From the NCBI GenBank assembly GCA_951406725.2, contig OX597821.1, positions 56,172,001 through 56,236,000 on the forward strand: DNA of 64,000 nucleotides. The letters run 5' to 3'. The notes under the pieces are model-generated. The model was not told the DNA's origin. It saw only the letters and a program-made list of their open reading frames with translations, and searched no databases. The first letter of the stretch is position 1. Each line of letters begins with the position of its first letter. Source of the stretch: Octopus vulgaris (taxonomy: Eukaryota). Made by a program: the position numbers and the translations under genes. Of the stretch, positions 1 to 57,442 are shown piece by piece.

Positions 1-44
1 TATATATATATATATATATATATACATATATATGTACATATATA

Positions 45-126
<82 letters not shown>

Positions 127-131
127 GTATT

Positions 132-167
<36 letters not shown>

Positions 168-261
168 TGTATGTGTGTGCGCGTGTGCGCGTAGTGCGCG
201 TGTGTGCTTATATGTGTATGTCTATGAGTGTGCTTCTGTGTATATGTGCATATATATATAT

Positions 262-449
262 ATTAGAGTTACAGAATACTTCTTGCTAGAAATAGGAATC
301 ATCACTCTAAATCCACAAATTTCTCATTGTTTTATTCATCTATTTTTCAAAATAGTCATTTCATTTTGTTCATGTGAATGCCCCAGTGACATTCAAAAAC
401 GAACATAAGGTGAGTCAGTACAATATACAATTTAATAAAGGATTATTAC

Positions 450-518
<69 letters not shown>

Positions 519-1186
519 CATAACGTGGCCTGCAAGCTAGCCTATATAGGTAAAAATATACGAATAAATAAAGTAGCCTACCGGAATAACACTTGCTGCA
601 AAATAGGAGTCAACACTGCAAATCCACAAATTTCTCACTTTTAAGAAGTACACACAGTGAATGTGACGAATATAATAAATATAGTCTTTACCTTCTATAA
701 ACTACAAAGCAAGAAAGATATCTTGGTATCAACTGATCTCACCTCCGTACTTTAGTACTTAATGATTCTGGTACCCTACTTTATTTATTTGTATATTTTA
801 CCTATTTATGTTCACTTGCTCGTCACTTTATTATTATTTTTAATAATGATATTAACACTTTATTAAATTTTATATTGTACTAACTCAATTCATGTTCGTT
901 TTTGAACGTCGCGAGGGCATTCAGATGAAGAAACGCGCACAGTGTAATGAAATGAATATTTTGAAAAATAGCTTAGCTGATGATCCTTAAGTACTAACGT
1001 ACAAAAAGTGAAATCAATTAACCAAGATATCTGTTCTTGCTTTGTGGTTTATACAAGGTAAGGCCTATATTTATTATATTCGTCACATTCACCGTGCGTG
1101 TTTCTTAACAGTGAGAAATTTGTGGATTTGTAGTGTTGACTCCTATTTCTAGCAAGTGGTATCCCGGTACTATATTTTATTTATTT
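262..1186. mobile_element. Head-to-head pair of a ~396-nt hammerhead-bearing PLE/retrozyme-like monomer
   Basis: ~560-769 is the diverged reverse complement of ~980-1186 and ~345-580 of ~775-970; the plus arm starts and ends with ggtac..ta.tttatttatt (770 and 1166). Confidence 0.75.
972..1026 (+). ncRNA. Decayed type I hammerhead ribozyme
   Basis: cttag-CTGATGA(977)-stem II with gtac/gtac-GAAA(1010); consensus with the mirror copy gives GAAA-TCAATTGA-TA-CCAAG. Confidence 0.6.
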
Positions 1187-1701
1187 GTTTATTCTACATA
1201 TACAGGTTAATGCGGTGAGGCTCGGCTTTCCACAGCTCAGCCCATGTCGCTTTCCTCTCAACCGCATTCTCCCATCTTGTCCATACTCCCCGTTGCTTCG
1301 TTTCCACTGCCTTGCATGTTCTCACCAGAATCGTGATAATTTTCAACTACTGACAGCAAACATATATATTTGCACATATGTATACATATATAAAGGCACT
1401 TATAAGTGAAAAAAAATGTGGGACAGAAACATGTACAAACAAGCATATTTAAAGCATACATGCATTCGTTTTCCAATTTTGACCATCAAAGAAGAAATTA
1501 CTGGAATCTTATTTAATGAATGTTATTGTTTGTGATAATTCCGGGAAGCTGTAATATATTCTCATTGAACTAAGCCAGAATCAAATTTTTGATGAAGTGC
1601 CATGACTCAACCTAAATTGTAATTAGTTGTGAGTTGAATGTTGGGCTAGTTTGTCCGTAATTCCACTAGGATCCTTACAACACATGGCAGCTATATCGTG
1701 G

Positions 1702-1736
1702 AACAGGTTCAACTTCTAATAGAAGTTGAACCTGTT
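1702..1736. repeat. Perfect 17-bp palindrome with 1-nt spacer
   Basis: aacaggttcaacttcta-a-tagaagttgaacctgtt. Confidence 0.9.
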
Positions 1737-2653
1737 AAAAGGTACATTGCATCTTTGCAAATAAAATTAACATTTAGTCGTGTAAGGCATAAACCAATTG
1801 ATTTGAAATTCGTATACCGCTTCTGGCATTGTGATGTATCTTAAAACAGACACATTCGTGATCTTGTCAAATTAATAGCAGCTGTTATTGAAATAAATAC
1901 ATTATCAAAAGAGCCACAGAAGCGACACAATGTAGGCGTATTTTGCTGCATTTAGCAGCAAAATACATGCATAATGGAAATCCAATGGCATGAGTTTTTT
2001 TGTCTTCTATCATAATTCTATTCTGACGTAGGGTGTCAAATAAACACATTAACTCGAACTCAATACTTCACTATTATGTTATATCATCGCTCCGGTAAGG
2101 GAAACGAAAAAGTTAACCCGGAAGGATTCGAAAATAGAGTGTAAAGGGCTGTAACTAAATACGCTCTAACGATTCCGATAATTATCACCTTGCCCTTAAA
2201 TCAATTCTGCCAATCACCCCGTCACTACTATAAAGGAAAAATACAATTCAGTTAACACAAAGGGGAGGAATAGTCGAGACAGCAGAACGCGAGACAGAAT
2301 GCTGTAGTGTATCTAGTACGGTACCTCACTCTTCCGAGTTCATATCTCATTTGGGTCGTTGATTTTCACAACTCTGTTGCCGATAAAATGAATACCAGTT
2401 TTATACTGAAGTCGATTCAATTGGCTATAACTTGTCCCCTACAAAATCGGTCTCGTACCTAGTCAAAAGAAATTAATATCAGTCATTGTAACACTGCAAA
2501 TCCTATTTATTCAAAATACGCTATTTTATAAAAGGTTTTATTTGCATTATGAATTAAGGTTTGTGCGCATTATTTCCTTATGTATCGACAATAACACTCG
2601 AAGATTGATGCTTGCATATGCACACGAACGCACCCACCCACACGTCCACACAC

Positions 2654-2734
<81 letters not shown>

Positions 2735-4789
2735 GATAGATATACATACGAGAAAACACGGCGCGAATAATACATAGACAGATCTAGTTTCTTTGGAATT
2801 CATTTATCTCGAGATGCAATGGAGTTTTTCACCATTGCTCAGTTATGACTTCAGTTGCAGGCAAAATACATGAGAGGAAGACGTCTTAAATGATTTTGCT
2901 GCCATTATTCTCCGTGAAATTGAAGTGACGTTTTCAGGGCACAATACTGGCCGGACTGTGTGGAGATCCATGATTGTCCAGATATCAGAATCTCCCTTAC
3001 AGCCTTGATGGTGTAGTCCAAAGGAGAACAGAACAGCACCACTTGAGAACGCTTAGTTGCAGAAATTTCAGGAAAAAGTATTAAATTGAACACCAAATCA
3101 CTATAAGGCTTTCCTCTGGATTTAATACGAGATTCATTCACGAGGCTAATTTGTTGTAACTGGGAATCAGTAACACTGGCCAGGGAGTCAAGTAGGTACA
3201 GTCAACACTAGCCAGGTGTGTCATAACTTATCTGAAATAACTTATCTGCCAAATTTTGTCAATTTTCAAAGGAAATTACTACTAGTTACATTTGAAGTCT
3301 TCTTTGAGCAGTCAGACGTCAGTTTACTTGGAAAGAGACAATGTAGTTATTAATAACGAGAGTAGACATTAACTCATGAACGATTTCACAGCTCTAGCAA
3401 AATTCCATCAAAGACTGCTTATGAACATTACAGCCCACCCTCGTACGTACGTACATAGACAGATACACGAGCATATGTATATGTGCATGTGTGTGCGTGT
3501 GTTCGTGCATGCGCGCGTGTACAGATATAAATATATATATGTTTGTGCGTGTGTGTGTGTGTATACTCCAGACCATAGAATACATTTTAAAATGGTAAAA
3601 CTTTCAGTTGGTGCAAAAAAAAAATTAATATTTCTAACCATTGCAACAGAATGCTTTCGAAAGTTCATAATTTTTATTATTGCATAACAATAATTCTATA
3701 TGTTTGTTCTTAGCCACGCCAACATGCACAAGATATGTTTAATGTTTGTGAGGAATACGAATAAGAAAGGAAGTCGAGGATAGATGTAATTGACTCTAAT
3801 TCCGAGCATCAATGAGAAGTTCTTCAACTGAAAGTTTAATAAGTTACTTTTATTTTTGTCAGATGCAAATTAATACTAGTGGAAATGATATAATCTGAAA
3901 TGTCATTATGTGCATTCTTCATTTTCGAATTTGATATCTAAATAATGGTATTTTCTACGTAGCGGAGGCGGGTGTTAGAGAGAAAATGGCAAACTTCTTG
4001 AGATTCGTGATTCCATCTGCCTTTGATTCTCAGTAAAAGATTAAAATGTGGCTCATACAATCTTTCCTCATTGTATTTAAACCATCAAAGCTCCTGGAAA
4101 GATATGAACGTCTAGATATTGTATTCCTCTTCTCCTAAAATAAAACATCTACATGTTTGTGTGTGTGAGCGCACGTGTGTGTACGTGCGTGTGGTATTAC
4201 TGTGTTCGTGTCTGCGTTTACTTTCAAACTGGTCTAAATAACGTTGTTGTTTACATTCTGTAGTATAGCACTTGGACAAATAAAGATAGAAATAAATACA
4301 GGGATGGGTACAATTTAATAAAATCTCTGTTGTTGGTATCTCAGATTGTTGCTGTTTGATGTCGAAACCAATAAACGAATAAAACATAGGAAAGAACTAT
4401 TTCTAAGCACTTTGTTTAGGATTAGAAACGTTTCGGCGCCGGATTAATAAGCGGAAGTATTTCATTTTTGTTCTTAAACAGCGTGAATTCAAATTTCGTG
4501 TGTCTTGAATATGTAGATTCAGTCGAGCGTGAGTGCGCGTGCAGATGTTTGTGTGAACATAAGCAGTAAACATACAAACGTCCAGTTCAAGTATTTCTCC
4601 GTAGATTGAATAAGTTGAAGAGCCTTAATCGATTTTCGACACATTTTGGGGTCTCAAGAGAGACCAATCCCACAAGTAGCCAATCCATTTGTATACATAT
4701 TATATATAACTGTTGCAGAGAACTGGAGCTGCTAATTTGTATACTATAATACTTTGACTCTAATATGAAGGTTAAGTGCGTGCGTGTGT

Positions 4790-4874
<85 letters not shown>

Positions 4875-5210
4875 ATATCTATCTGTCTGTCTATGTCTGT
4901 CTATCTATTTACTTTTATACTGTCTACTAATATGTTCCTGCTTACGGCATACAAGCGGTCAAAAAGGTACAACTTGTTGCACTACTACTATTGGCAATAC
5001 TAAACACTCATCAGACATACTGACCAGAAGCATGTCTGATGCGTTGTCTGGATTGGTAGGTACAATTGTAGAATCGAAAGACAAGAAATCTTTCAGCCTG
5101 GTTACATACCGTAACTAGGAACTTACTAGTCGTTAATGTAAAAGTATAACCGCTTAAACTCTGTTACAGTATGCTATATTTCTGACTTTAGCCAACTGAC
5201 CGACAATATA

Positions 5211-5298
<88 letters not shown>

Positions 5299-5599
5299 GC
5301 ATATATATATATATATTATATTCTATTCCATAAGAACATATGAAAATTGCAGTTATGCACACATAGAAGATTCTGGAAGGTCTAGCTCACAACTTTGGAT
5401 TTGAAAGCTATGCCAATCACCAAACTGGATGGCAATGCAATGTACCAAAGCTTCCGTCTTCTCCATCCGAAATAAGAATCCATTACTGTAACAGCTTGGG
5501 TTTCACGGGTTCACAAATATTCAACATACTCCCGTGTAGCGTCAGTGATTTGCGTGATGTAGATGTGGAGATCTAAAAACGCCTGGACAAATTTTAATG

Positions 5600-6196: not shown

Positions 6197-7998
6197 TACA
6201 AGTCATCCCATAAGTAACGTCCGGACTTCTATATTTTCAATTTGTAAACGCTTTAACAGTATTTTAGATTGTCTAATGGCATCAAGTAATATTTATCTGT
6301 ATTTGAAGATATTTAAACTAATTAAATTTCATTTTGCAGGATAACTTAATTGAAATTTCACTGATTATAGCTCTTATAGTTGGTCAAAAATGTTATCAAC
6401 AGCAGATATGACGTCATCACCATTTAGGTAGTGGTTCCGAGCCATTTTTTTTTTTAATGTTGGAGAATCAATGATAGCGAGATGGATTCAAGCAATGTCA
6501 GATTTTCCCGTAAAGTGAGCTAGGTGAGCTTTGATCAGATGTCAGAAGACATATAGTGTCTAAAGAGCATTTGAGGCACATAATGCTTTATGAGTTTAAA
6601 AAAAGGAACCCTGCAGCCGAGGCGACTCGAAATATTCACTCAGCTTATGAAGAAGAATGCCTGAATGAAAGACCTTGTAGAAGACGGTTTGTAAAATTCA
6701 GAAGTGGAGATTTGAGCCTTGAATATGGCCAAGCTCCTTTCGACAGAACTTGAAAATGATCATGCAGCTTTAGTCGAAGAATTGGCAAACTAGCTTCATT
6801 CAAGCCATACAACTGTTCACGTCCGTCTTCAGCAGCTTGGGAAGGTCCCAAAACTCGGAAAATTGGGTGTCTCATGATTTGTCTGAAGCCAACCGCAAAT
6901 CCCGAGTGAACATTTGCTTTTCTCTTCGTTCTCGTGAACTCGTCTCGGCCTTTTTGGACAGACTGATGACCGGGGATGGAAACTGGGTTTATCTATAAGA
7001 ATGTTAAGCGTCGTAGACATTGGCTTGATGAAGGGGAAAACACCCAACCACAGCCGGAAGGGGAACTCCATGCAAAGACGGTTCTTCTCTCTGTTTGGTT
7101 GAATTGCAAAGAAGTCATCTACGATAAGTTGCTACCAACTAATGCAACAACCAATGCTCAAATCAACAGTTAAGAATTAGAGTGTTTAGAGGTTGTGCTA
7201 AATTAAAAAGAAAGATATGCTTTAGTGAATCGAAAGGGACTGTGCTGTTTCATCAGGAAAATGCAAAATCCCACACTGCAAAGATAAGGTCACAGAAGGT
7301 CGAAGAACTTGGCCCGGAAGAAATTGCTCATTTGCCTTATTCTCCAGACCTTACTCCTTCAGGTTACCATTTGTTCTGTAGTTTACAGAATCATTTGGAT
7401 GGATTAACTCTCGAAACAACCGACGAAATAAAAACTGACCTTTCAGAGTTCTCTTCGAAACCGAAAGATTTTTTCACTAATGGGATTCACAAACTTACGA
7501 GTAAATGGAAAGATGTCATAGATAATCATAGAAACTATACTCTCCCTTTACTCTTTTACTTGTTTCAGTCACTTGACTGCGGCCATGCTGGAGCACCGCC
7601 TTTTAATCGAGCCACTCGACCCCGGGACTTATTCTTTTGTAAGCCCAGTACTTATTCTATCGGTCTCTTTTGCCGAACCGCTAAGTAACGGGGACATAAA
7701 CACACCAGCATCGGTTGTCAAGCAATGCTAGGGGACAAACACAGACACACAAACACACACACGCATATATATATATATATATATACATATATACCACGGG
7801 CTTCTTTCAGTTTCCGTCTACCAAATCCACTCACAAGGCTTTGGTCGGCCAGAGGCTATAGTAGAAGACACTTGCCCAAGGTGCCATGCAGTGGGACTGA
7901 ACCCGGAACCATGTGGTTGGTAGACAAGCTACTTACCACACAGCCACATTAATTTTAATCACTTGTTTTCCTTATTCAAAATCAAGACATTACTTATA
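6197..7998 (+). mobile_element. Decayed mariner transposon interrupted by a SINE
   Basis: Frameshifted transposase 6556-7540 (HLRHIMLYEF, TGD, FHQENAKSH, YSPDLTPSGYHLF); left TIR agtcatcccataagtaacgtcc, partial right TIR gacattacttat. Confidence 0.92.
7541..7947 (-). mobile_element. tRNA-derived CORE-type SINE (family A)
   Basis: A/B-box-like head, ggcaccttgggcaagtgtctt core-like motif, internal microsatellite; near-identical copies at 39427 and 40294. Confidence 0.9.
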
Positions 7999-10169: not shown

Positions 10170-10238
10170 AGAGTAAGCAGCATTGCTTACTCTCTAATCG
10201 AATGAGAGTAAGCAATGCTGCTTACTCTCATCCGATTA
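10170..10238. repeat. Compound palindrome (a hairpin plus an inverted copy of itself)
   Basis: gagtaagcagcattgcttactctc followed by its reverse complement; 10195-10238 forms a 20-bp stem with one mismatch. Confidence 0.85.
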
Positions 10239-12875: not shown

Positions 12876-14154
12876 TATCTTAATCCACTAAGTTCCCGCG
12901 GTTTTTTTAAATTTTGGAATTTATTGCGCTTTTAAATTTGGAATCTATTTTTTCGAGATTTCTATTTTGGAATCATTTCTGTATCTACTTTTTTCTAGTC
13001 AATTTTAGTTAATTTTGTTTATTTTTAGATAGTAAAATTGGAATGTGAAGTTAAGAAAAACGAGCATTTTTGACACCTCCTTCTTGTTGCTTTTAATCAA
13101 GGTTCTAAGGCCGCAAAATCTGCTTGCACCATTTGTGCTGTGTATGGAGAGGGTGCCATAGCTGAAAGAACCGCTCGTGATTAATATGCCAAGTTCAGAA
13201 ATGGAGATTTTGACCTCAAAAACTCACCTCGTTCTGACCGTCCAGTTGAGTTCGATGAAGAGCGATTGAACTAACTTTTGCACGAAGATTCTCGTCAACG
13301 ATAAAGGAACTGGCAGAGAAAATAGAATGCTTCCACACTGCTATAGAGAATCATCTTCATTCGATGGGAAAGGTTCACAAGTATGGGGCATGGGTTCTGC
13401 TTGCTTTAAGGGACAAGAACAAAAATCAACGAGCCACAATCTCCGCTGGTTTGTTTGCTCGTCGACGCTCAAGTCGTGGACACAGGCAATGATTTCTTTA
13501 CCGAATCGTTACTGGTGACGAAAAATGGTGCCTGTACATCAATATGAAGCACCGTAAGGAATGGCTTAGCACCGGTAAACAAGCAACACTGCGCGTGAAA
13601 CAAGATCTTCATCCGCGTAAAACGATGTTGTGCGTATGATGGGACTAGGAAGGGATTATTCCTTATGGATTGCTTGAACGGAATCAAACGGTCAACGCGG
13701 AACTCTATGGCACGATGGAACGACTCAACATGGGTATTCAAGAGAGAAGACCTAATCGGCAGCATGGAGTTGATCTGCTGCATGGCAACGCCCGCCCTCA
13801 TATCGCCAATATGACCAAGGAAGCCATTCAAACGCATGGCTGGGAAATGCTGCCACATCCGCCGTACTCTCCTGGTTCGGCACCAACAGATTTCCACCTC
13901 TTTCGATCTCTTTCAAATGCTATGCGCGGAGTTTCGTTCAATACTGATGCAGAATTGAGAGCTTTGCTGGATCAATTATTCAAGACGAAATCGGGGGATT
14001 TCTACCAACGAGGTACTGAATATCTTGTTGAACGTTGGGAAGAAGTTGTAAACAACGAAAGTAAATACATTATTAATTAGTTGTTATTTTTTATTTACCC
14101 TTTTAAGAAATTTAAATTTTAAAAAAACGGTGGGAATTTAGTGGCCGACCTAAT
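12876..14154 (+). mobile_element. Near full-length decayed mariner transposon
   Basis: TIRs ccactaagttcccgcggttttttt / aaaaaaacggtgggaatttagtgg; transposase 13038-14080 with stops (VTGDEKW, LLHGNARPH, YSPGSAPTDFHLF). Confidence 0.95.
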
Positions 14155-15057: not shown

Positions 15058-15184
15058 ATGCATGTATGTATGCATGTGTATATATATATGTATAGATACA
15101 TATATAATATATGAATATAAAGTACATATATTTATATATAATTTATATATAATATACTTACATATATATATATATATATATATA

Positions 15185-15500
15185 TACTTAATAAATAGGG
15201 TTCAGCAAAGATTTGCTTTATCACATACAGAAGTTTAGAAATAGCAGCCAAAAAACGTTAGCTATTTCTTCTACTTTAAAAAGGGACTCCCAGAAAAAAC
15301 CAAAATACTTGAAAACAATCACACGTTTTTTGGCTGCTATTTCTAAACTTCGGTATGTGGTAAAGTAAATCTTTGCTGGACCCTATTTATTAAGTATTAC
15401 TTAAGTTTACCATGATATGGTCCTTTTTTCATACCGAATTCTACTTGGTGAAATTATTGATTACTTCTTAATTAATTAATTTTACCCTTTGTTATTATTG
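15185..15500. mobile_element. Short inverted-repeat element in (TA)n, probably PLE-derived
   Basis: 74-bp arms 15185-15258 and 15323-15396. Confidence 0.65.
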
Positions 15501-18877: not shown

Positions 18878-19735
18878 TAAGATATGTTTCTTTATTAGCC
18901 ACACAGGGCTGCACACAGATAGAACAAATTACAAGGTAGAGCTTTTCTTTTGAAGGTTTTAAAAAAAAAAAAAAAAAAAAAAAGGAAGGGGGAGTTTCGA
19001 TCAAAAGGGATCGTAAAAGGAGAGAAAGAGGACAAAAAAAGGGGGGTTAAAAAAAGGGGGAGCAAGGATGATGAAAATAGCTCTTCCTTCCCGTTTGAAG
19101 GAAGGAGGCGTGACAATATTGACGATAGACTCAGCTGATAAACCGACTCGTCCCACACGTGACAGCAGTTGTTCGACATAAGCCCACAGGTCGGAAATTG
19201 TTGGACACTGAACGAGTGCGTGCAGAACGGTTTCGTCGCTCTGACCGCATCTCGGGCAGGTCGGCCCCGTGTTTCTCGAGCCGTGTCTGTAGAGCTTATC
19301 CCGAACGGGTAGCGCTTCTCGGTAGCACTGCCAGGCCAGGGATCTCTGGAAGTTGTCCATGGGCCCTGGCCCGAAAGTCGTCCTGAACAGGCGGGTCAGG
19401 TACTCCTCGTCGACGTCCAGGTTCGCCCCGAGCTCGTCGTCGTACCTCCCCTCCACTAAACCCCTATAGAATGCTTTGGTTGTGTTGAAGTCACTTAAGG
19501 TCGACCCAGGACGGCAGAGTTGCTTGAGAGCAACGCGACACTCGCGGTGCCATTCGCCCTTCCTCGGCCTCTTTTTGATCCACGACTGCAGTTCGGTCAT
19601 GGAGACGAGCTGCGGGAAAGCGTGCCTCACAAACGGCGACCACACCTGTTCACCGTCGTCTACATAGAGCCAGAGATGCCGCAGTCTCAGCGCGTGTCTG
19701 CGCATCATCAACCACGGCATGATAGACAGAGAGGA
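18878..19735 (-). mobile_element. 5'-truncated Tx1/L1-clade LINE 3' end
   Basis: GC-rich open frame with LPVRDKL..CPRCGQSDETVLHALVQCP (zf-RVT CCHC); pyrimidine-rich 3' UTR with AATAAA; abuts (GATA)n. Confidence 0.9.
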
Positions 19736-19892
<157 letters not shown>

Positions 19893-22177
19893 CAGTGGTG
19901 ATACATAAATAATTGGTAGATAGGTATAAAATAGATAACTAGAAACACACACATATATCAAAGAAAAACTATTTCACCCCTACACACATATATATGCACG
20001 CATCTACATATATGTATGTGCGTACATACATACGTACATATATTTTGTATGTGCATATGTACAAGCACGTTGATTGATAGGTAGATAGATAAATTATTAA
20101 ATAGTTGATACGGAATAAAAAAATTAATGAAATTGAAGAGATGCGGTAAACAACTAACAGTTTACTGTGGTTTAAGAGAACAAAGAACAGTAGCGGAAAC
20201 TAAAAAGAACTGGAAACAATGGGAACAAAGTAGTGTATGGAAATGATGAAAAAAATTCTATATTAATAACAATGAATAACCTGTGACAAGAACAATTATA
20301 TTTGGTTATCCGCGCGTGTGTGTGTGTGTTTGTGTGTGTATACGTACATATACACACATAGGCACATAGATGCAAAAATATAAATCTCTCTACCTATCTA
20401 TCAATCAATCTTTCTGTCTATATAAGTATGCATCTACGCTTGGATGAACAAATATATATTTGCAAGTAGTAAAAGAAGCTTCAATATTATTTGTTCTGTT
20501 TTCTTTCACAGAATAAAAATTGTCACATGCCAGCTGTTGTATTCTCGTAAAAGAAGCAAAAGTAGAACTTGTATAACATCATCTTTTTTTTTTCTCTTAG
20601 AACAATATTACTAATCCATATACATAAAAGTTGTCACGTATTTATGTCTGAAATCATGCGTGCGTGTTCGCTCAGAAACCCAAGAATGAAGCGTTCTAAA
20701 AAAAACCCTTAAAACCAGATTCAGAATTAACTGTAAAAAATAAACGGAAACAAACATCCTTTTCGACCATAGGGGCTCACACTATTGCCTCACCCAATTA
20801 AAATTCTGTTTTAATTATTCAAGGTTTACGATATAAATTTTATCTGGTACTTGATAATATTTTACTAATTTAATGGTTTTTATTAGACGTATAACGGTTG
20901 CATTGAGGTAGATAATTTTTGGGAAGAATACAAAAAATTTAAAAGATTTTCAAGGGATGCATAAACTCTTTAGCAGGATCAGAAAATATTCATGGCGAAT
21001 TTTAAAACCTCGAGTTTTAGTAGGAGCCCATAAAGACATATTTCTACAACGAGCTGAAGTGTTTCTTTTTCTTTTTTAAGAAAGTAATTTTGTTAATGAG
21101 AATTACAAAGTTTCTGTAGAGATCAGAAGAATTTTAAATTTGAATTTTAAGTTTGTATAAAAAAATGTTGAACGCTAATATTTGATGCCAATTTTGAGTA
21201 AAAGGTTCTCAGTTTTTATGAAGCTAGGAATTCAAATTAAATCAATATAATGTGAGATACTTTTTCATTAATTTTCTTGAAAAAATATTTTTTATACTCG
21301 TTGCATGATTTTTTATTCAGTGTATCGTCTTGTTAAAGATAAAATGCAGTAAAACTTCTGTAACATTATATATAAATAAATTCGGTCTGCGTAAATTTTG
21401 TTTTAATTTTAGCTCCATAAAAATAACGGGTAATTAATCTGTGTTAAATAATTAAAAATAAATATAGTAAAATCGCTCATATAGGTCTGTAATCATGCGT
21501 CTGTGTCTGCTCTAAAACTTGACAACAGATTTCTAGAGAGAAACAAGATAAGATGTAGCAATTGAAAAATAGATAAAATGTGTTAATGAAATGATAATGA
21601 GAGTTATAGGACAGGATTATAATCGTGAGTCTGATAGAGAAAATCACAACCACATCAGGTCTATGGGGATAGCTAAACATCCATACAAAAGGCTAAGCCC
21701 AAAGCTAAACATCAATACAAAAGACTAAGCCCAAATAACCAAGCCATAAATGTGGTCTACCAAGAGACTTTATTGTATTTCTGGATTACATAGAGAGAGT
21801 CTCAAGTTAATAAAATGGACAATAAATCGCAAAATTATCAGAAATAATCTAATTCAACATGGTTTATTTTCAGCTTTGATTATTCGTAGAGGAAAATCTA
21901 GTTAATGCTTGTACATTTCACTAGGTACTCAGTCTAGTATATATGTAGGCAAATAAAGGCATATCAAGCCTTGATATATTGAAATTATCTCTGTCCCCAG
22001 AGGATAGATCATGATTACCAAATGGCAACTGAAAACAACTCAGTAGGAAAAAGGGAAATAACATCAAGAATCAAGATTTCTCCAAAGTTGACATATCACT
22101 AAAGGAAAGGGCTTATTGTTTGGTAATAAGAGGCGTTTCTGCTTCAATAATTGTCCTTACCGCCCCCAACTGCGAAG

Positions 22178-23700
22178 AGACAGTTTTTGCTAGAATGGAA
22201 CTGATATATCAATTCAATCTATACTCTTACAAACGCTACACCTTTAAAAAGAAATGGACTTGTTTGATTGGCCCTTTAGAAAAAACGGTCAATCTTCGAG
22301 CGATAAACAAAAAGGTCAAAAATATATGTATATATATATATAAAAAACTTATAAAAATTATAAAATCCGAGGAAAAAACCTATTGACGTTAATGAAGACA
22401 GTGCAAATTTGAATCAAAGAAGTGAGCTAATGAACTTATGTAGGCACGCGGCTAAATTTAAAATGTCGAATATAAATATACCATATGGATAGAGTATATA
22501 TTTTGTATTTTTGATTTTGATTTTGACTCTTGAATGATGAGCGCTACGATGGATTTTGATTTTGTTTTTGTTTCCAAGCTATGCGGATCTTAATCCGTAT
22601 AGCAAAGTCTTATGTTTCTACATATATATTAGGAAAAACCTACAAACTTTGTTTTCATGTTATTGTATTGCATAAGATTACCTTGATTATTTATATTACC
22701 TTGATTATTTATAAATGACCCAAAATAGGATGTTATATTTTATTTTATTTTATATGTCTTTCGTATATATTTTTATTAATGCACCCATTTTTAAAAGCAA
22801 TATTTTTTTAAAAAAACAATGTTGTCAAAATTAGAATGTTTATATAAGTATGTGTATAGCAAAGCATATGTATTTGTAAGCATGCGTATCTGTGTATGTG
22901 TAAGTGAAAGTATGTTTGTGCTTAAGCACACATATACACGACTGTATGTATGTGTATCCATTCAAACTTGTGTATGTATACTGGTCTTTATATATGCCAA
23001 TAATACCGTTACACTGCTTGTATACATAATTTTTTCTTATTTCGTTTTTTCCCCACCCCTCCTTCGTTCCTTTCTCTCTCTCCCTTTCTTTCGTTTCCCC
23101 TCCTTGCTCAGTATATGAGAATTGCTACATAGATGAATTTTAGCTTGCGTGCGAGACGGTTTGTGTGAATATATGTACACATGCTTTTATGTGTATATTT
23201 AGATTTATATTCATACGTCTGTATATGTATGTATGGCGTTTACGCGCATCCTTTTGTGTATGTTGATATATATATGTAGATTTTAATATAAATATGTATT
23301 GCAGTATTTATAACAGGTTTAATTTCTATGCATTAATTTGCACTGTCTTCATTAACGTCAATAGGTTTTTCCTCGGATTTTATAATTTTTATAAGTTTTT
23401 TATATATATATACATATATCTTTGACCTTTTTGTTTATCGCTCGAAGATTGACCGTTTTTTCTAAAGGGCCAATCAAACAAGTCCATTTCTTTTTAAAGG
23501 TGTAGCGTTTGTAAGAGTATAGATTGAATTGATATATCAGTTCCATTCTAGCAAAAACTGTCTGATGAACGGCAACGAGAAACTCAGAGTAACAGATTTT
23601 GTTGAATTTTCTGCTGCTTAAAATAAAGTATATTACTCTACCACTGGTATTTGAGTACTCTTTTTTCCACCTTGTTTCACATTTATGTGTTTACTCCGGT
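22178..23700 (+). mobile_element. 5'-truncated Penelope-like element with inverted pLTR piece
   Basis: Near-perfect arms 22178-22409 and 23335-23563; LNQRSELMNLCRHAAKF at ~22408 matches the Penelope GIY-YIG C-terminus; hammerhead at 23554. Confidence 0.82.
23554..23599 (+). ncRNA. Minimal type I hammerhead ribozyme
   Basis: aaaactgt-CTGATGA-a cg GCAA cg a-GAAA-ctc a gag-TA^-acagattt; stem I ctgt/acag; stem II closing pair is an A/A mismatch. Confidence 0.78.
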
Positions 23701-23753
23701 ATATATATATATATATTTATTTATATATATATATATATAGATATAGATATACC

Positions 23754-24234: not shown

Positions 24235-24285
<51 letters not shown>

Positions 24286-24330
24286 GAAATGTGTTTTGAA
24301 AAAAATATAAAATACACGTGGAAATGTAAG

Positions 24331-25818
24331 GTTAAAATATAGAAAATCAACGAAAATGCATATTGTAGATATAAAAAAGCTATTTATGACAGGTAGTGAC
24401 AAATATATACATTTAGAGTATTACTAGTCAAAAAGTCCTTATTATTGATGATTATAAGAAGTTAATAATGATAATAATAATAAGGTAAGAGACTGAAACG
24501 AACCAATTGGTTTTCGCGTTAGCTATTCATCGTTTGAACAACACCGGTTAGTAAACGGTGTCAGGTCTAATAGTTCCTGAGAAAAGAGATTATTTGTAAG
24601 GGAGGTAAGTAGTTAAGGAATTAGAAATGTGAGTGATGTAGAAAGTGTATAGGGTTTAGTGATTTAAATTGAAGAGTTAATGGTGTTCTGTATTGAGTTG
24701 TGTGTTCACATTTACTTGGGGGAGAAATTTGTTGATGAAAAATGATTCTTTATTCAACCTTCGTTGCATTGTGGTGTTCTGTGAGCATTGGTAAAAGGGA
24801 AATATTTGGAAATTGGGATTAAGATTCCTGGAACATCATTCTATGTGTTCACTCACCTTTAACTGTCTGTATTGTGGGTAGCGGATTTGCTCTTTGTGAA
24901 TGGTGATTCTTTGACGGAGCGAAATTCCTGTTTGTCCAATATAGAGTTTACCGCATCCTATGCATGTCATGACATAGATTACATTTGCTGAGGCGCAGGT
25001 GAAATTTGATTTGATCTTAAATATTTCTCCTTGTTTGAATTGGAATTCTGAATCCTCCAGAAGATGGGGGCATGTTCCACAGTTGGAACGTCCACATTTT
25101 GTCACTTTTGGCTAAGTAGTTAGTGGGTAAAGTCTAGCGCTGGTTAGTAATATTTTCAGTGACTTCGGTTGCTTTTTGCTTTTTATAATTTTATATGAGC
25201 TTAAAATTTCGTTCATTGTTTTGTCTGCTGTGAGGATGGGGAGGTTTTGGGTGATGATGTTGAAGGCTTCGTTGTTTCTGGGGTTATGTGTGGAGATGTA
25301 CGGGAGTATTTTTAAGTCTTGTTTAGTATTACGGCTAGTTTTTCTTAATCTTTGTATATCTATTCACTTAGCTCTTTTGATGCCTTCATTTACTAATGAG
25401 ATTGGGCAGTGTCTTTTAGTTAGTGTAGATCTAAGTTCAAGAAGTCTATCTTCACGAGTGTATAACTCTTCAATTTAAACCACTAAACCCTATACACTTT
25501 CTACATCACTCACATTTCTAATTCCTGAACTACTTACCTCCCTTATAAATTATCTCTTTTCTCAGGAACTATTAGACCTGACACCGTTTACTAACCGATG
25601 TTGTTCAAACGATGAATAGTTAACGCGAAAACCAATTGGTTCGTTTAAGTCTCTTACCTTATTATTATTATTATTATTATTATTAACTTCTTATAGTCAT
25701 CAATAATAAGGACCTTTTTGACTAGTAATACTCTAAATGTATATATTTGTCACTACCTGTCATAAATAGCCTTTTTATATCTACAATATGCATTTTCGTT
25801 GAATTTTTATATTTTAAC
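24331..25818 (-). mobile_element. Penelope-like element (Neptune-type) GIY-YIG fragment between inverted pLTRs
   Basis: CGRSNCGTC linker, NVIY..C..CGKLYIGQT..LRQR motif (24700-25460, with stops); ~350-bp arms 24331-24679 and 25463-25818. Confidence 0.92.
25606..25647 (+). ncRNA. Degenerate hammerhead in pLTR (mirror copy 24495-24536 on minus strand)
   Basis: aaac-GATGA-..gc-GAAA-accaattggt-TC-gttt; palindromic stem III; core lacks 1-2 nt. Confidence 0.5.
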
Positions 25819-26873
25819 ACCATACATATATATATATTTATTTATTTCTGTGTATGCGTTTGTACATATACATGTATGTTTGTAATTTACCTGTATGAAT
25901 GTTCTGATTTTTCCGCTTTTAAATTCCAATGAGGGATATGATTTTCAAACGGCAACTTGATGCGTTATTTTGCACTTATATATTGCATTTTGTATTAAGT
26001 TATGTTATATGAATTATATTATTTATATATTGTGAATATATATGTATATCTTCTTGTGTATATTGATATGTATACTTGCATATCTATATCTATATGGATA
26101 TGCACACACACACACATAAATATATACATATATATATATATATGGCCACAGCTCATAAGCTGAAACTGGAAAAATCAAAATCAAATCAAATCATATACAT
26201 ACACATACCTACATATATATACATATATATATACATATGCACACACACACACATACACATATATATATATATGTATGTATCTATCTCTCTCTATATATAT
26301 GTATGTTATTTTCTGGGTGTATGCGCGTTTGTATATGTATGTATAAACTCTGTTAATGGGAGCATACATAACCATGATTGCTTCTTTTTGGATGTGTGTA
26401 TGTCTTGATACGTATATATTGGTTTATACTGTGAACGTATGCGTAATCTATCGTCTCTACTCGTATGAGTATATGTGTATGTGGTGGTGAATGTGTGTGT
26501 GTGCGCGTGTTTGTGCGGCTATATCCGTTGCAGTTCAGGCTTCCGCCGCTCGGCGTTACTTGATGCAAGCTTCAGGCATCAGTCTTCAACCGGCGTCGTC
26601 GTTTGGCGCGATACTGCCACTTGATGTGCCTTTGGTTTTGAAATTTATCTGTATTTGTCTACATATATACTAGTCTGAGTACCTAGTAAAATATACAAGC
26701 ATTAATTAAATTTTCCTCTACAAATAATCAAGGCTGAAATTAAGCCATGTTGAATTAGATTATTTCTGATAATTTTGCTATTAATTGTCCATTTTATTAA
26801 CTTGAGTCTCTCTCTATGTAATCCAGACATCAAGTCTCTTATGACTAGGTTATTTGGGCTTAGCCTTTTGCAT

Positions 26874-27350
26874 GGTGACGAAAGCTGATGCTACGGCAAC
26901 GACTCGGAAACGAAGCAGCAATCAAATAAATGGAAGCTTTCGATGTCATCACGTCCCCAAAAAGTGCATCAAGTTAATTTTAATATCGAGACGATATTAA
27001 TGTGTTTCATCGACGAGAATGGAATTGTCCACGCACATTATGGTCCTCCCGGACAAACTGTTAACCAGACATTTTAATATGCTTGTCAGTTCTTGCCCCC
27101 TACGACTTTCTTTTGTTCGCCCGAACGTGAAAATTCCTTAAATGAAAACATTTTGCAGACGTGGAAGATATGAAGAAAATAACGAGGCGTTAAAAGGCAT
27201 ATTTTTGGAAGCATTCCGGGATTGCTTCGGACAATGGAAAACGCCTCTCGACCAATGTATGGCGTCAAACGGAGAATACTATGGAGGCAGTAAAATTGTA
27301 AATATGTAAAGCTAAGTGAATAAAATAATTCTGCGAAATTCCGGTTTCTT
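26874..27350 (+). mobile_element. Internally deleted mariner transposase fragment
   Basis: GDES*CYGNDSETKQQS, GIVHAHYGPPGQTVN, LAPYDF, QCMASNGEYY. Confidence 0.85.
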
Positions 27351-37570: not shown

Positions 37571-38529
37571 TGTAATATAAAACTGAATGTGTCGGCTATA
37601 ACCAATGTCCTAACAATTGGCCGTGGTAGGTGATGCTTAAAATTCATTAAGTTGCTCAATTCCTATCGTAAACTCGGACAGGGAGTCACACAACCAGATT
37701 TTTTATGCTCACTAAGATTTAAAGTCTGTGTGTATGTGTGTATTTGTGCGCGCGAGCCCGTTAATGCCGTATTGTAGATGACATACCTGCAGCCCCGAGG
37801 CACTATGTTGACTAGCCTGATTTGATGAGGTTGCTGCAATTTTCTTGACCTCGTTAACCATTTTGTGATGCGCATGTATGTGATAACTTCTTTTATGCGC
37901 TATAAGGAGTATAGATGCTTATCACTTATTGTTGGAAGTCTTTACGGAAAATGTCTTTACAGCAAAAAGAAAAACATAGTCTACTATATAGTGCTTAGTA
38001 TAAATATATATTCAGTGTGTTTGTATGAGTGCAGCGAGAGAGAGAGAGAGAGAGAGAGAGGTTGGGAGAGACAGCAACAAAGACAGAGACAGGGAGGCAT
38101 AGAGACAGAGAGAAAGAGAAGGAGGCGAAGCAAGCAATTGAGTATCTGAAAATCATGGGAGAATGAGCTGCTTGAATTGTTGCGTACAAAGTACAAACGT
38201 AAGAGTGATTTTCAAATTCTTTATAAGAAATGAAACGCGCGGCTATTACGTGCTAACAAAGATCAGAATTTCCTCATAAGTTGTAAATTATCTTTTCTGA
38301 TATTAAGTTTTCTTTTTTTTATTTCCTCTCCTCTTTTCATTGAGACACGCCATCAGTTGCCATATTATCTACATTCTGCATCATATTTATGTGTATGTCT
38401 TTAGGTCTGTGTTTGTTCCGCCCTCCCCATCACTCGACAATCGCTGTCGGTGTGTTTACGTCCCTGTAACTTAGCAGTTCGGCAAAAGAACCCGATGGAA
38501 TAAGCACCAGACTTCAAAGAAACTAGTAC

Positions 38530-39426: not shown

Positions 39427-39830
39427 CTCTTTTACTCTTTACTCTTTTACTTGTTTCAGTCATTTGACTGCGGCCATGCTCGAGCACCGCCTTTAATCGA
39501 GCAACTCGACCCCGGAACTTATTATTTTGTAAGCCCAGTACTTATTCTATCCGTCTCCTTTTGCCGAACCGCTAAGTAACGGGGACATAAACACACCAGC
39601 ATCGGTTGTCAATCAATGCTAGGGGGACAAACACAAACACACAAATATACACACGCATGTATGTATATATATACATATATACGACAGGCTTCTTTCAGTT
39701 TCCGTCTACCAAATCCACTCACAAGGCTTTGGTCGGCCCGAGGCTATAGTAGAAGACATTTGCCACACAGTGGGACTGAACCCGGAACCATGTGGTTGGT
39801 AAACAAGCTACTTACCACACAGCCACTCCT
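39427..39830 (-). mobile_element. SINE family A
   Basis: Matches 7541-7947; 18-bp TSD gtatgtRtaaatatgtat. Confidence 0.92.
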
Positions 39831-40207
39831 GTATGTGTAAATATGTATATAACTATGTACATACGTTTGTGTATTTTGTTGTATATATGTATATTATAGA
39901 TGTCTAGTATGCGTATATACTGCTGAAAAAATATTTATGTAATACAGTTTGAAAATTTTAAATTTTAATTTTAATGTATTGACTTATATTTCGTATATGA
40001 TTATTTACCATATGTATTGGGAATCTACTCTTCGATTCAAGGTTTTCTTCGATTTTACAATAGAATGAATTTATACTGAATTTATTTTGTTTATTGCATG
40101 CTTAAAACCGTTAGTTGAAAGGACCAATGAAACAAAACCATTTTCAAAGGTGTATCCTTTAAACTTTTTTTTTTTTTTTTATATCGTCATTTCTGTTCCA
40201 TTCTAAC

Positions 40208-40252
40208 AAACTGTCCGACGAACGGGAACGTGAAACTCTGAATAACAGCTTT
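40208..40252 (+). ncRNA. Minimal hammerhead, U4C variant
   Basis: aaactgt-CCGACGA-acg GGAA cgt-GAAA-ctctgaa-TA-acag. Confidence 0.68.
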
Positions 40253-40293
40253 TCTGATATTTCTGCTGCTTTTAAATGAAGTATATATTTATA

Positions 40294-40709
40294 CACTCTT
40301 TCACTTGTTTCAATCATCTGACTGTGGCCATGCTGGAGCACCGCCTTTAGTCGAGCAAATCGACCCCAGAACTTATTCTTTGTAAGCCTAGTACTTATTC
40401 TATCGGTCTCTTTTGCCGAACTGCTAAGTTACGGAGATATAAACACACCAGCATCGGTTGTCAAGCGATGTTGGTGGGGGACAAACACAGACACAGAAAC
40501 ATATACACACACATACATATATACATATATATACATACATATATACGACGGGCTTCTTCCACTTTCCATCTAACAAATCCACTCACAAGGATTTGGTCGG
40601 CCTGAGGCATTAGTAGAAGACACTTGCCCAAGGTGCCACGCAGAGGGACTGAACCTGGAACCATATGGTTTGTAAGCAAGCTACTTACCACACAACCACT
40701 CCTACGCCT
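40294..40709 (-). mobile_element. SINE family A
   Basis: Matches the 7541 and 39427 copies along its length. Confidence 0.92.
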
Positions 40710-40727
40710 ATATATATATATATATAT

Positions 40728-40802
<75 letters not shown>

Positions 40803-50364: not shown

Positions 50365-52198
50365 ATATATATGTATGTATAAGATGGATAGATACATGTA
50401 TATATTGTGTGTGTGAGTGCGTTTAGTCTTTACCGCTATAATCATCGATTATAACGGTTTAACAAGACACAACACATCACATTGATATACATTAACACAC
50501 ATACACTTACACAAATACCTGACAATAACGCAATTGAATTTGTATTAGTAGCGTATCATCTCGGTAAAACCATTCTGAGAATGTCGAAACATCAGTGATC
50601 AGTGAAGTTTACGAGGGCTTGTAAAGTTTAAAAAGTAATATAAAATCCAGAAAGATGTGTCTTAAGTATGTTAACTGATTATCTTGCAGATCATTTTTAA
50701 AGATGACTAGCTTGAAATGATTTATAAAATATCTCTCATCATAGTCGTTGCTAAGGTTATGTGGTAACTGTTAACTCATTTGCCATCTTTTAAGTAGTGT
50801 CAATGTGAAGTGATATCCATTAGTTTAAAGAGTGCATTTAATTCCTTACATCGGAAGATTTTTAAACTCTTAGAAAGCAAAATTGCTTTCTAAATATATA
50901 TAATTATGTTTATAATAAATGAAGCAGCCATATATATTTTTTCATATAAAATAATGAACCATCATTATAATAACTTGCAGAAAGTCCTCCCACCAGGCGG
51001 TTTTCTGCAAGCCTCTTGAAAAATATTTTCAAGTTTGATTCCCAATTCTAATAAGTTTTATAGTTCACGTCTAATTATTTCTTTGCATAATAGTGTTCAT
51101 TCCGTTAATAAAAATTGCTTTCATTATTCTATCACACTCATAATCTCTCTTAAACAAACATCACGGTAGTCCAACAACAGAGGGAGAAGCAATTTGTCAA
51201 GTTTTACTTTCCCTCAAAGAGATATAGAGATTACATTCTAGCAGCCCTTCTGTAAGTTTTGCAGTGTGTGTGGAGAGAAGGAGAAAGGAGAGAGAACAAT
51301 GCAAGCAATGAATGCAATAAACATGAAATTTTAAAAATCATATAATTTCTTGTCTCATAACATCAAGAAAAAAGGATGCTTTTTAACAAAATTTCCTACA
51401 AATACAGCTTAGATTTTGTGGCTTCAAGTGTATATAGGGATTTATGGGAGAGAATTTTTCCGATAGGGTGGTGAGGGAAGTTTTGGAACATTCACATGAT
51501 CTGACATTTTCCCCTCATAACTTTCAGGAAAATTGGTATCTTTTAATGGAAATGTATGCAAATCCCTTTTAAACGTCATAGATTATGATTAAAAAGAAAT
51601 TCGTGAGAAAATTCTTTTCGGGGATCTTCCCCATTTTTTAAAACCACACCCTTCGTAATGATTGGGTTGGTAGGGAAGCATCTTTGAATGAAAAACATTT
51701 TGAAAATTCTTCTTTTTCAGTTTAAAACCATGGGTAGAGCATTTTGGTAATTTTTGTTTTAAATTGTTAATATTTTCAGAGGGAAAATTGAGTGATTTAA
51801 GGGCGATTTGACTGTTGTTTCTAACTCATACGAAGGCAACCCTCCTCGTTTCGTAATCACACTCGCACGTATTGATATTTCTCAATATTTTTTTCTCCAT
51901 AGATATATTTATATGCTATAAAGAAAGAAAATTTGAGAAATTATGACTATTTTGCAACCCCACTTCCTGCCCACGATTGTTTCTGTTTAGAAATTAAAAT
52001 ATTGGAGAGCCTGAGAAGGTCATTGCTGGCATTTATCCACAGTGAATAAAAAAATTACTGTGATGTGCTTGCATAGCAGGTGACATGATCTGAGATCGTG
52101 TGCTGGAACAAAAACAATTGCAGCGTGAAAGCTGTTTGTAAGCAATTCAAGAACACACAAAAACGGTTAGTTTTACTTCAACATTTAAATTTCATTAG

Positions 52199-52245
52199 TA
52201 TCAAAATATTTTCGTCGCTTTGAAACCGTGACCTGTTCACTGACA
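52199..52245 (-). ncRNA. Hammerhead fold with G3-C8 swapped core
   Basis: tgtca-GTGAACA-g-gtcac..gcgac-GAAA-atat-TT-tgata; mirror copy 52278-52324 gives tcgc/gcga and tgaca. Confidence 0.65.
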
Positions 52246-52325
52246 AAATTTTACAAAAATGATGCAGCATGAAGTTTTGTCAGTAAACATCTCGCGTTTT
52301 CAAAGCGACGAAAATATATTGACAC

Positions 52326-55889: not shown

Positions 55890-56160
55890 TGAGCAAGCTT
55901 GAGAGTGGATTTGGTTGACGGAAACAGAAAGAAGCCCGTCATATGTATATATGTATGTATGCACCTATGTATGTGTGTCTTTGTGCCTGTGTCCTTCTTA
56001 TTCCCCACTTGACAACCAGTATTGGTATGTTTACGTCCTCGTAATTTAGCAGCTCGGTAAAAGTACAAGTCTTAGGGTTGATTTCTGCGACTAAACTCTT
56101 CAAGGCGGTGCACCCGCATAAACACAGTAAAATGACTGGACCAGGTGAGAGATAAAGTAT
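55890..56160 (+). mobile_element. Diverged family A SINE fragment (others near 14290-14630 and 38400-38520)
   Basis: gagtggatttggttgacggaaacagaaagaagcccgtc matches family A. Confidence 0.78.
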
Positions 56161-56791: not shown

Positions 56792-57012
56792 TCATGATTG
56801 TTTGCCATGTGATGCCCTTATATGACTTTTAAGCCCAGCCAAGCTTTTACACATTTTATTACACACTAGAAAACTGTGCTGGCTGGCAGGAGAAACAGGT
56901 GTCACCATATGCACTCTTTTAACATGTCTTTTTAGACCTCCAACTGAGAGGCACACCCTTCCACATTTTACACATGTTCTGTTATGAATTTTAATAGCCA
57001 CATCAACACGTA
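56792..57012 (-). mobile_element. C2H2-finger fragment, probably the C-terminus of an RTE-type LINE ORF
   Basis: CVKCGRVCLSVGGLKRHVKRVH and [22 protein letters not shown]; no zinc-finger-gene linker or splice acceptor seen. Confidence 0.6.
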
Positions 57013-57442
57013 GGATGCCAGAAATGGATAGGTACAGTAAAAGAAAAGCGGTTGTAAATTTTAAACCCCATATGTGTTCTTTATATATATATATATGTAT
57101 GTATAAAGACACATACACACACACACACATATACACATATATATCTATAATAATGATAATGGCCCGAAACCACGATGATATTTTCGCTCATAGATTGACG
57201 AGAAAAACTCAGCTGCGAACATTCCGTGTATCGCGTCTTTGTGTATATTCCTCGTCCGTTAAGTTTTTGTCTAGTTTCCCGTTTGCGCTCCTTTCGTCTA
57301 ACTTATCCTCCTTGTTGTGTTGTGTCTGTTCAACCCATGACATATCTTTATGTATATATATATATTTCCCTTGTAGTTTGATCGTTGATGATCTATTTCT
57401 AGCATTCTGGCCGGCTACCTAGCAGGCCAGCCCTGCCAATAT

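What the first reader, a model, noticed from the sequence alone, without database searches (positions are those of the whole stretch)
262..1186. Circularly permuted ~396-nt monomer in head-to-head arrangement (retrozyme-like)
Seen: the plus arm runs 770-1186 and ends in the sequence it began with. The minus arm starts at a different register, within the hammerhead near 765, and reads through more than one unit with an internal deletion. Inference: terminal redundancy with different permutations fits reverse transcription of a circular or multimeric RNA processed by the hammerhead. The size fits metazoan non-LTR retrozymes, but a tandem pLTR template is an alternative.
Basis: partly seen in the sequence, partly recalled or inferred. 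Interest (0 to 1): 0.75.

Follow-up and report, generated by a model that had tools for sequence, protein, structure and literature searches.

The report
Decayed Penelope-type hammerhead retrozyme insertion
This is an old, broken copy of a small non-coding jumping element with a self-cutting RNA motif, inserted with the back-to-back layout typical of Penelope retrotransposons; it is a new member of a known kind, and the locus cannot show that a circular RNA was the template.

Summary
A non-coding 396-nt unit lies head-to-head. The plus arm (765-1209) holds one unit plus about 49 nt. The minus arm (766-263) starts inside the hammerhead core, crosses the unit junction twice and carries a ~135-nt deletion. 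The type I hammerhead is real but decayed in every copy; the copies differ by 12-23%.

The 'free permutation, so circle' inference is weak. Only the 5' ends differ. The outward 3' ends sit at nearly the same register, 35 nt apart. That offset matches the 30-40-nt one-sided tail of Penelope-like elements (PLEs), which also show head-to-head inverted truncated copies and (TA)n targets. A GIY-YIG-coding PLE remnant 24 kb away has the same layout.

Best reading: a non-autonomous PLE (animal non-LTR retrozyme) copied by PLE protein from both target nicks on an uncleaved tandem RNA. The plus arm starts where the minus arm ends, as twin priming predicts. A re-ligated circle is not excluded (about 0.25). 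Copy number and expression could not be tested.

The parts
1..262 (.). Left flank: mixed (TA)n/(TG)n microsatellite tract, the likely AT-rich target
   Evidence: 240-263 is not a continuation of the unit (157 of 187 (TA)4-started window stretches score as well)
263..766 (-). Inverted arm, read 766 to 263: registers 983-1165, 770-971, then 1107 to ~1174; 3' end points outward
264..277 (-). 3' end of the inverted arm, register 765-777/778 (inferred main RT start site); the same register at which the plus arm begins
   Evidence: 11 of 14 identical to 765-778, 9 of 14 to each of the other two junction copies
332..339 (-). Junction of the ~135-nt deletion (registers ~972-1106) with 8 nt of filler; removes the hammerhead from the second unit
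442..518 (.). (TAA)n expansion inside the inverted arm, at the A/T-rich tract of plus ~828-849; probably later slippage
713..766 (-). 3' part of the type I hammerhead in the inverted arm: stem II, GAAA changed to GAGA (740-737), self-complementary stem III (737-728), cut site 727|726, stem I 3' strand; the core upstream of A9 is missing
765..766 (.). Head-to-head 5'-5' junction, about 2 nt shared by both arms; no long palindrome
765..1209 (+). Forward arm: one 396-nt non-coding unit (770-1165, 31.6% GC) plus terminal redundancy
963..1035 (+). Decayed type I hammerhead: stem I 5' strand 963-976, CUGAUGA 977-983, stem II 984-1009 with U-U at its base, GAAA 1010-1013, stem III and cut triplet damaged by a 2-nt deletion, stem I 3' strand 1022-1035
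   Evidence: stem I 10 of 14 pairs within the plus arm, 11 of 14 against the minus copy; 5 of 5000 shuffles reach 7 of 9 Watson-Crick pairs beside the core and GAAA
1175..1209 (+). 35-nt one-sided extension beyond the register where the inverted arm ends: the PLE 'tail'
   Evidence: tail as described in PMC8557442 and PMC11167929

Best explanation
This is a fossil insertion of a non-autonomous Penelope-like element, that is, an animal non-LTR retrozyme with a 396-nt unit and one type I hammerhead per unit.

Inferred steps:
1. A tandem donor was transcribed into an RNA of several units that was not cut at its hammerheads.
2. Protein from an autonomous GIY-YIG PLE nicked both strands of a (TA)n target.
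3. Both 3'-OH ends primed reverse transcription at the element's two internal start sites, 35 nt apart in register, which gives fixed outward ends and a one-sided tail.
4. One cDNA started at the tail site and ran one unit plus ~49 nt, ending where the other had started. The other ran on through a deleted unit into the next hammerhead core.
5. The two cDNAs were joined head-to-head over ~2 nt.
6. Point mutation and microsatellite slippage then disabled it.

Shown: the anatomy, the period, the end registers, lack of coding capacity, the hammerhead remnant, and the same layout in a coding neighbour. Inferred: PLE protein in trans, the priming order, and a linear tandem template.
For: Both arms cross the same unit junction with no ORF between repeats, so the repeat was in the template (longest ATG-started frame 32 aa). 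The 3' ends are 35 nt apart in register, with the extension on one side only.

This matches PLE descriptions: inverted 5'-truncated copy, 30-40-bp tail at one end, (TA)n targets (PMC8557442); head-to-head as the commonest inverted layout (PMC3846280). In vitro a PLE protein nicks and extends both strands, prefers AT-rich DNA, starts at two internal RNA sites that define the tail, and does not need hammerhead cleavage (PMC11167929).

In-window control: a GIY-YIG fragment at 24839-25111 (Pfam E = 1e-5) sits in an insertion with a head-to-head inverted copy (24331-24679 vs 25463-25818, 95%), TA-rich ends and a longer forward end.

The plus 5' start falls on the minus 3' end register. Divergences are similar between parts, as one event predicts (22 of 181 vs 39 of 235 sites, Fisher p = 0.21).
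Against: Only one locus was available. No other copy was found in the 64 kb, and there is no sequence link to the two neighbouring PLE-type insertions, so the autonomous partner is not identified. No convincing target-site duplication (a single TA-rich 6-mer). The register coincidence has about a 30 in 396 chance of arising at random and was noticed after the fact. The hammerhead is only readable by comparing two damaged copies, and Rfam finds none. Equal divergence fits a circle as well as a young tandem.
Confidence: 0.6

Rival explanations
1. Same element and enzyme, but the template was a hammerhead-cut, re-ligated 396-nt circle copied for more than one round from both nicks. The deletion would be an RT jump or later damage.
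For: Animal retrozyme RNAs accumulate largely as circles of ~170-400 nt, and circles are the proposed RT template (PMC7229834). Both arms exceed one unit and cross the cut site. The unit folds into a rod as a circle (z -3.4, 1 of 100 shuffles as stable). Copies are about equally diverged.
Against: Fixed 3' ends give no sign of free permutation. The second minus unit differs from the first by a ~135-nt deletion, which one circle cannot template twice without a jump. In vitro the unprocessed RNA is the main PLE substrate (PMC11167929). The rod is not supported by covariation (0 compensatory changes among 72 comparable pairs), the antisense strand scores the same z, and 1 of 30 control tiles scored lower.
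Confidence: 0.25
2. Debris of a coding PLE: stacked 5'-truncated pLTR copies from repeated priming, with no independent non-autonomous family.
For: Partial tandems and inverted pLTRs are standard for coding PLEs. The inverted repeat of the coding neighbour is of similar size (~350 nt).
Against: Independent truncations would not recreate the same junction. Here the tail is the start of the same unit and leads to the next hammerhead with no ORF, in both arms. No ORF remnant adjoins the element: 0 Pfam matches among the 15 scanned frames lying in 1140-5573.
Confidence: 0.1
3. Two separate insertions or a later DNA rearrangement (inversion, fold-back repair, assembly artefact) put the arms back to back.
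For: The region is rich in repeats and microsatellites. PLE endonucleases can cut within their own pLTR region (PMC11167929).
Against: The arms differ by 12-23%, so this is not a read fold-back. The junction is 5'-to-5', while a homing copy would attach by its 3' end. No left remnant of a cut plus copy exists beyond 263. The layout recurs at two other insertions in the window.
Confidence: 0.05

Closest known systems
Metazoan non-LTR retrozymes (Cervera and de la Pena 2020, PMC7229834; for example mussel 350-390-bp and axolotl 330/350-bp repeats)
   Same: Non-coding unit of 396 nt, GC under 50%, one type I hammerhead per unit, more than one unit in tandem. The U-U pair at the base of helix II has a precedent in axolotl HHR_Amex2.
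   Different: A dispersed, head-to-head, decayed insertion rather than an intact array. No intact ribozyme and no expression data. It shows PLE integration marks (inversion, tail) that I did not see described in the sections read.
EN+ Penelope-like elements (Penelope/Poseidon, Neptune, Nematis, Hydra) and their pLTR/tail structure (PMC8557442, PMC3846280, PMC11167929)
   Same: Head-to-head inverted 5'-truncated copy, 30-40-nt tail at one end, hammerhead upstream of the 3' end, AT-rich microsatellite target.
   Different: No RT or GIY-YIG ORF; the unit closes on itself after 396 nt.
Non-autonomous PLE derivatives: MRC1-type Chlamys elements (PMC8557442) and Xenopus retrozymes related to pLTRs (10.64898/2026.07.22.740005)
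   Same: Non-coding, multi-unit, moved by PLE machinery (inferred here).
   Different: Those were tied to autonomous partners by sequence similarity; no partner could be identified here. Chlamys elements mostly lack canonical hammerheads.
LINE-1 twin priming (recalled; no paper read on it)
   Same: Head-to-head inversion in which the inverted arm's 3' end abuts the forward arm's 5' start on the template, joined by microhomology.
   Different: Here both primers appear to use the element's own start sites in successive units; there is no poly(A) tail.

Membership tests
Metazoan non-LTR retrozyme | Short tandem unit of 150-450 bp | tested here: met
   396-nt period; the junction is crossed in both arms
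Metazoan non-LTR retrozyme | Type I hammerhead in the unit | tested here: inconclusive
   All elements are present in the right order across two copies (stem I 11 of 14, stem III 10 of 10 self-complementary; 5 of 5000 shuffles), but no single copy is intact. Rfam gives no match, and it also misses the intact-looking motif at 23562.
Metazoan non-LTR retrozyme | Non-coding, GC below 50% | tested here: met
   31.6% GC; longest stop-free frame 54 aa, longest from Met 32 aa, unit read as a circle on both strands
Metazoan non-LTR retrozyme | [quoted passage not shown] | tested here: not met
   Plus copy damaged, first minus copy lacks the core, second minus copy deleted. The locus is a dead copy.
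Metazoan non-LTR retrozyme | Multi-copy family in the genome | not testable with these tools
   No animal genome collection; no further copy in the 64 kb
Metazoan non-LTR retrozyme | Self-cleavage and accumulation as circular/linear monomer RNA | not testable with these tools
   Needs RNA data or bench work
Metazoan non-LTR retrozyme | Absence of LTR, PBS and PPT | not tested
   No PBS/PPT search was run; the layout shows no long direct terminal repeats beyond the ~45-nt redundancy
Autonomous EN+ PLE | ORF with RT and GIY-YIG endonuclease | tested here: not met
   so not an autonomous PLE
PLE-mobilised insertion | Inverted 5'-truncated copy joined head-to-head | tested here: met
PLE-mobilised insertion | 30-40-nt tail at one end only | tested here: met
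   35 nt on the plus arm, none on the minus arm
PLE-mobilised insertion | AT-rich or microsatellite target | tested here: inconclusive
   Left flank is (TA)n/(TG)n; right flank 1210-1330 is 54.5% GC
PLE-mobilised insertion | Target-site duplication (variable in PLEs) | tested here: inconclusive
   Only one TA-rich 6-mer is shared by the flanks
PLE-mobilised insertion | Sequence similarity to the pLTR of an autonomous PLE | tested here: inconclusive
   No match beyond AT-rich noise to the two PLE-type neighbours; the rest of the genome is not available

The most novel reading that the evidence does not exclude
The locus records PLE reverse transcriptase copying a circular retrozyme RNA for more than one round from both target nicks, so that PLE inversions, tails and retrozyme tandems come from one mechanism acting on a circle. 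The end registers of such small non-coding copies would then be a genome-wide readout of how PLE inverted repeats form, which the PLE papers read here call unresolved. A search for 'retrozyme' with 'head-to-head' found 0 papers; 'twin priming' with 'Penelope' found 3, none about PLEs by title or abstract start.
Probability: 0.25. Interest if true: 0.62.

Novelty: new member of a known kind. Interest (0 to 1): 0.36.

Why it matters
As a single decayed copy it matters little. Its modest value is that a non-coding hammerhead monomer carries the PLE integration signature (head-to-head inversion and a 35-nt one-sided tail). That is structural support, beside published phylogenetic evidence, that animal retrozymes are moved by PLE proteins. 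Because the unit is short and periodic, the rule seen here (forward 5' end on the register of the inverted 3' end) can be counted across all genomic copies. That would test twin priming on tandem RNA against copying of circles.

Tried and rejected
- Rfam: 0 matches at gathering score in the 64 kb; 9 weak matches in 200-1400, none a hammerhead. Uninformative, because the intact-looking motif at 23562 is missed too.
- My type I hammerhead scanner gave 32 rows, mostly chance, and did not return the 977 motif as intact.
- One pairing row was off by one base (5 of 16); one search corrects it to 11 of 14. One register row was off by one; one search corrects it.
- A second, minimal hammerhead at ~915-950 was considered by eye and dropped: the stems do not nest and the other copy is deleted there.
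- Conserved rod structure: an independent fold of the minus arm recovered 11 of 107 pairs, but simulated 15% decay recovers a median of 8 (36 of 60 runs at 11 or fewer). This is uninformative either way. Of 87 confident pairs, 58 were unchanged, 4 changed on one side, 0 compensatory, 10 broken and 15 gapped.
- Extension of the minus arm into the left microsatellite: rejected.
- Searches for relatives: none in phages, none for a 27-mer in bacterial and archaeal genomes. Both were expected for an animal repeat.
- Literature on this host group: the host looks octopus-like to me from recall only, untested. 'octopus, Penelope, hammerhead' gave 5 papers and 'hammerhead, octopus, retrozyme' gave 3; none describes such a family by title or abstract start.
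- The supplement of PMC7229834 could not be read, and bioRxiv supplements are closed; either may already list this family or inverted copies.

Full report
Setting. The window is AT-rich, microsatellite-rich animal DNA with mariner transposase remnants, a zf-RVT fragment and a GIY-YIG fragment among 145 scanned frames. The host was not identified; it looks octopus-like from recall only.

Observation. The plus arm has a 396-nt period, starts at about 765 and ends at about 1209 rather than 1186: the last 23 nt match the minus copy at 18 positions, better than any of 8929 window 23-mers. The minus arm starts at 766, equivalent to plus 983, and runs through registers 983-1165 and 770-971. It then skips ~135 nt and covers 1107 to about 1174, ending at about 263 against a TA microsatellite. 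A (TAA)n run at 442-518 and a 13-nt deletion interrupt it. Copies differ at 12-23% of sites, so this is an old insertion and not a read artefact. The unit is 31.6% GC and non-coding. No other copy occurs in the window.

Hammerhead. A type I motif lies at 963-1035: CUGAUGA at 977-983, a long stem II with U-U at its base, GAAA at 1010-1013, then stem I closing with 10 of 14 pairs (11 of 14 against the minus copy). In the minus copy stem III is a 10-nt self-complementary segment followed by the cut site, the kind of short helix III that works as a dimer in amphibian retrozymes (PMC7229834). A shuffle test designed after seeing the motif gave 5 of 5000. No copy is intact. The plus copy has lost 2 nt at stem III and part of stem II pairing, the first minus copy lacks the core and has GAGA, and the second minus copy has lost the motif. 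Rfam finds nothing, but it also misses an intact-looking motif at 23562.

What the ends say. Only the inward 5' ends differ. The outward 3' ends lie at registers 1174 and 1209, 35 nt apart, 153 and 188 nt after the cut site. This is the PLE signature. Craig et al. describe an inverted 5'-truncated copy at the 5' end, a 30-40-bp tail often at one end only, and (TA)n targets (PMC8557442, passages). The Adineta vaga Penelope paper calls head-to-head the most frequent inverted layout (PMC3846280, passages and Discussion). Frangieh et al. show that a PLE protein nicks and extends both strands of AT-rich DNA, starts at two internal RNA sites that define the tail, and uses unprocessed RNA without needing the hammerhead (PMC11167929, parts 1-2 of 4).

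In-window control. At about 24283-25825 a PLE remnant with a GIY-YIG fragment has a 95% identical inverted copy joined head-to-head and TA-rich ends. Its forward end runs about 47 nt further by eye; with no third copy, that tail is inferred. A second insertion at 22178-23701 has a 98% identical inverted arm and an intact-looking hammerhead. Neither shares sequence with the focal unit.

Template. Both arms cross the same unit junction, and the tail is simply the start of the next unit, leading to the next hammerhead with no ORF between. So the template held the closed 396-nt unit more than once; stacked truncated pLTRs of a coding element would not give this. Both arms also run through the cut site, so a linear self-cleaved monomer is excluded. 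What remains is an uncut multimer or a re-ligated circle.

Twin priming. The plus arm begins on the register where the minus arm ends, with a 14-nt overlap; these two copies are slightly closer to each other (11 of 14) than the minus end is to the other two junction copies (9 of 14 each). That is what priming from both nicks on one tandem RNA predicts, by analogy with LINE-1 twin priming (recalled). The chance of such a match is about 30 in 396 and it was noticed after the fact, so it is a lead and not proof.

Circle or not. The unit folds into a rod (z about -3.4), but there is no covariation and the replication test was uninformative. The parts are equally diverged (p = 0.21), which fits either template. 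The deletion in the second minus unit is easier to explain from a mixed tandem donor. I put an uncut linear tandem at about 0.6 and a circle at about 0.25.

Relation to what is known. Size, composition and ribozyme fit metazoan non-LTR retrozymes (PMC7229834, parts 2-4 of 6; supplement unreadable). A 2026 preprint argues from distribution and pLTR similarity that these are non-autonomous PLE derivatives (10.64898/2026.07.22.740005, parts 1-3 of 5, abstract through discussion; supplements closed). The element works like a non-autonomous PLE or retrozyme. It fails the preprint's criterion for an active retrozyme and is not an autonomous PLE. Copy number and expression are untested. Other papers were seen only as search listings.

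Verdict. A real feature and a new, decayed member of a known kind. The remaining interest is the end-register rule, which can be tested genome-wide. Interest 0.36.

Noticed in passing
window 24283-25825: PLE remnant: broken ORF end on the minus strand with a CxxxxCxxC motif before a GIY-YIG fragment (24839-25111, Pfam E 1e-5), a ~350-nt head-to-head inverted copy (95%) and TA-rich ends. Both copies carry a hammerhead-like motif with a palindromic stem III whose core seems to lack two bases (about 24535-24500 minus, 25605-25645 plus). Clade (Neptune/Nematis-like) is from the literature description, not tested.
   Followed up: partly
window 22178-23701: Second head-to-head insertion: inverted arm 22409-22178 is 98% identical to 23335-23563. 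The forward part starts with a short peptide resembling a PLE endonuclease C-terminus (recalled motif) and has an intact-looking type I hammerhead at 23562-23591 (stem I 9 of 10), ending in (TA)n at 23701. The inverted arm ends inside the hammerhead core.
   Followed up: partly
window 40189-40286: Older copy (81%) of the 23534-23633 hammerhead region, with a mutated core.
   Followed up: partly
window 23696-23701 and 1165-1170: The 23562 element ends in the same hexamer (CCGGTA) that lies at the unit junction of the focal element; may be a shared PLE start-site motif or chance.
   Followed up: no
window 1209-1268: The right flank begins with a GC-richer 60-nt hairpin (-22.7 kcal/mol for 1205-1275); no other copy in the window. 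Possibly the end of another repeat.
   Followed up: partly
window 6535-7685, 13472-14080, 26889-27074: Mariner/Mos1-type transposase remnants (Pfam HTH_48 and Transposase_1 at the first, Transposase_1 at the third; the second by eye). A hammerhead-like scanner hit at 6963 lies inside the first and is probably chance.
   Followed up: no
window 19004-19957: Minus-strand frame with a zf-RVT domain (E 4e-8): 3' end of a non-LTR retrotransposon next to a (GATA)n tract.
   Followed up: no
window 7546-7947, 39437-39901, 40295-40781, 38390-38521, 55898-56066: Dispersed ~400-nt repeat family (72-91% identity), SINE-like by size; not examined.
   Followed up: no
window 1702-1736, 10170-10238, 15184-15397, 52198-52325: Local palindromes or fold-back repeats found by self-BLAST.
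   Followed up: no
window 56795-57187: Minus-strand frame with weak C2H2 zinc-finger matches below the Pfam cut-offs; such fingers often end RTE-type retrotransposon ORFs (recalled).
   Followed up: no
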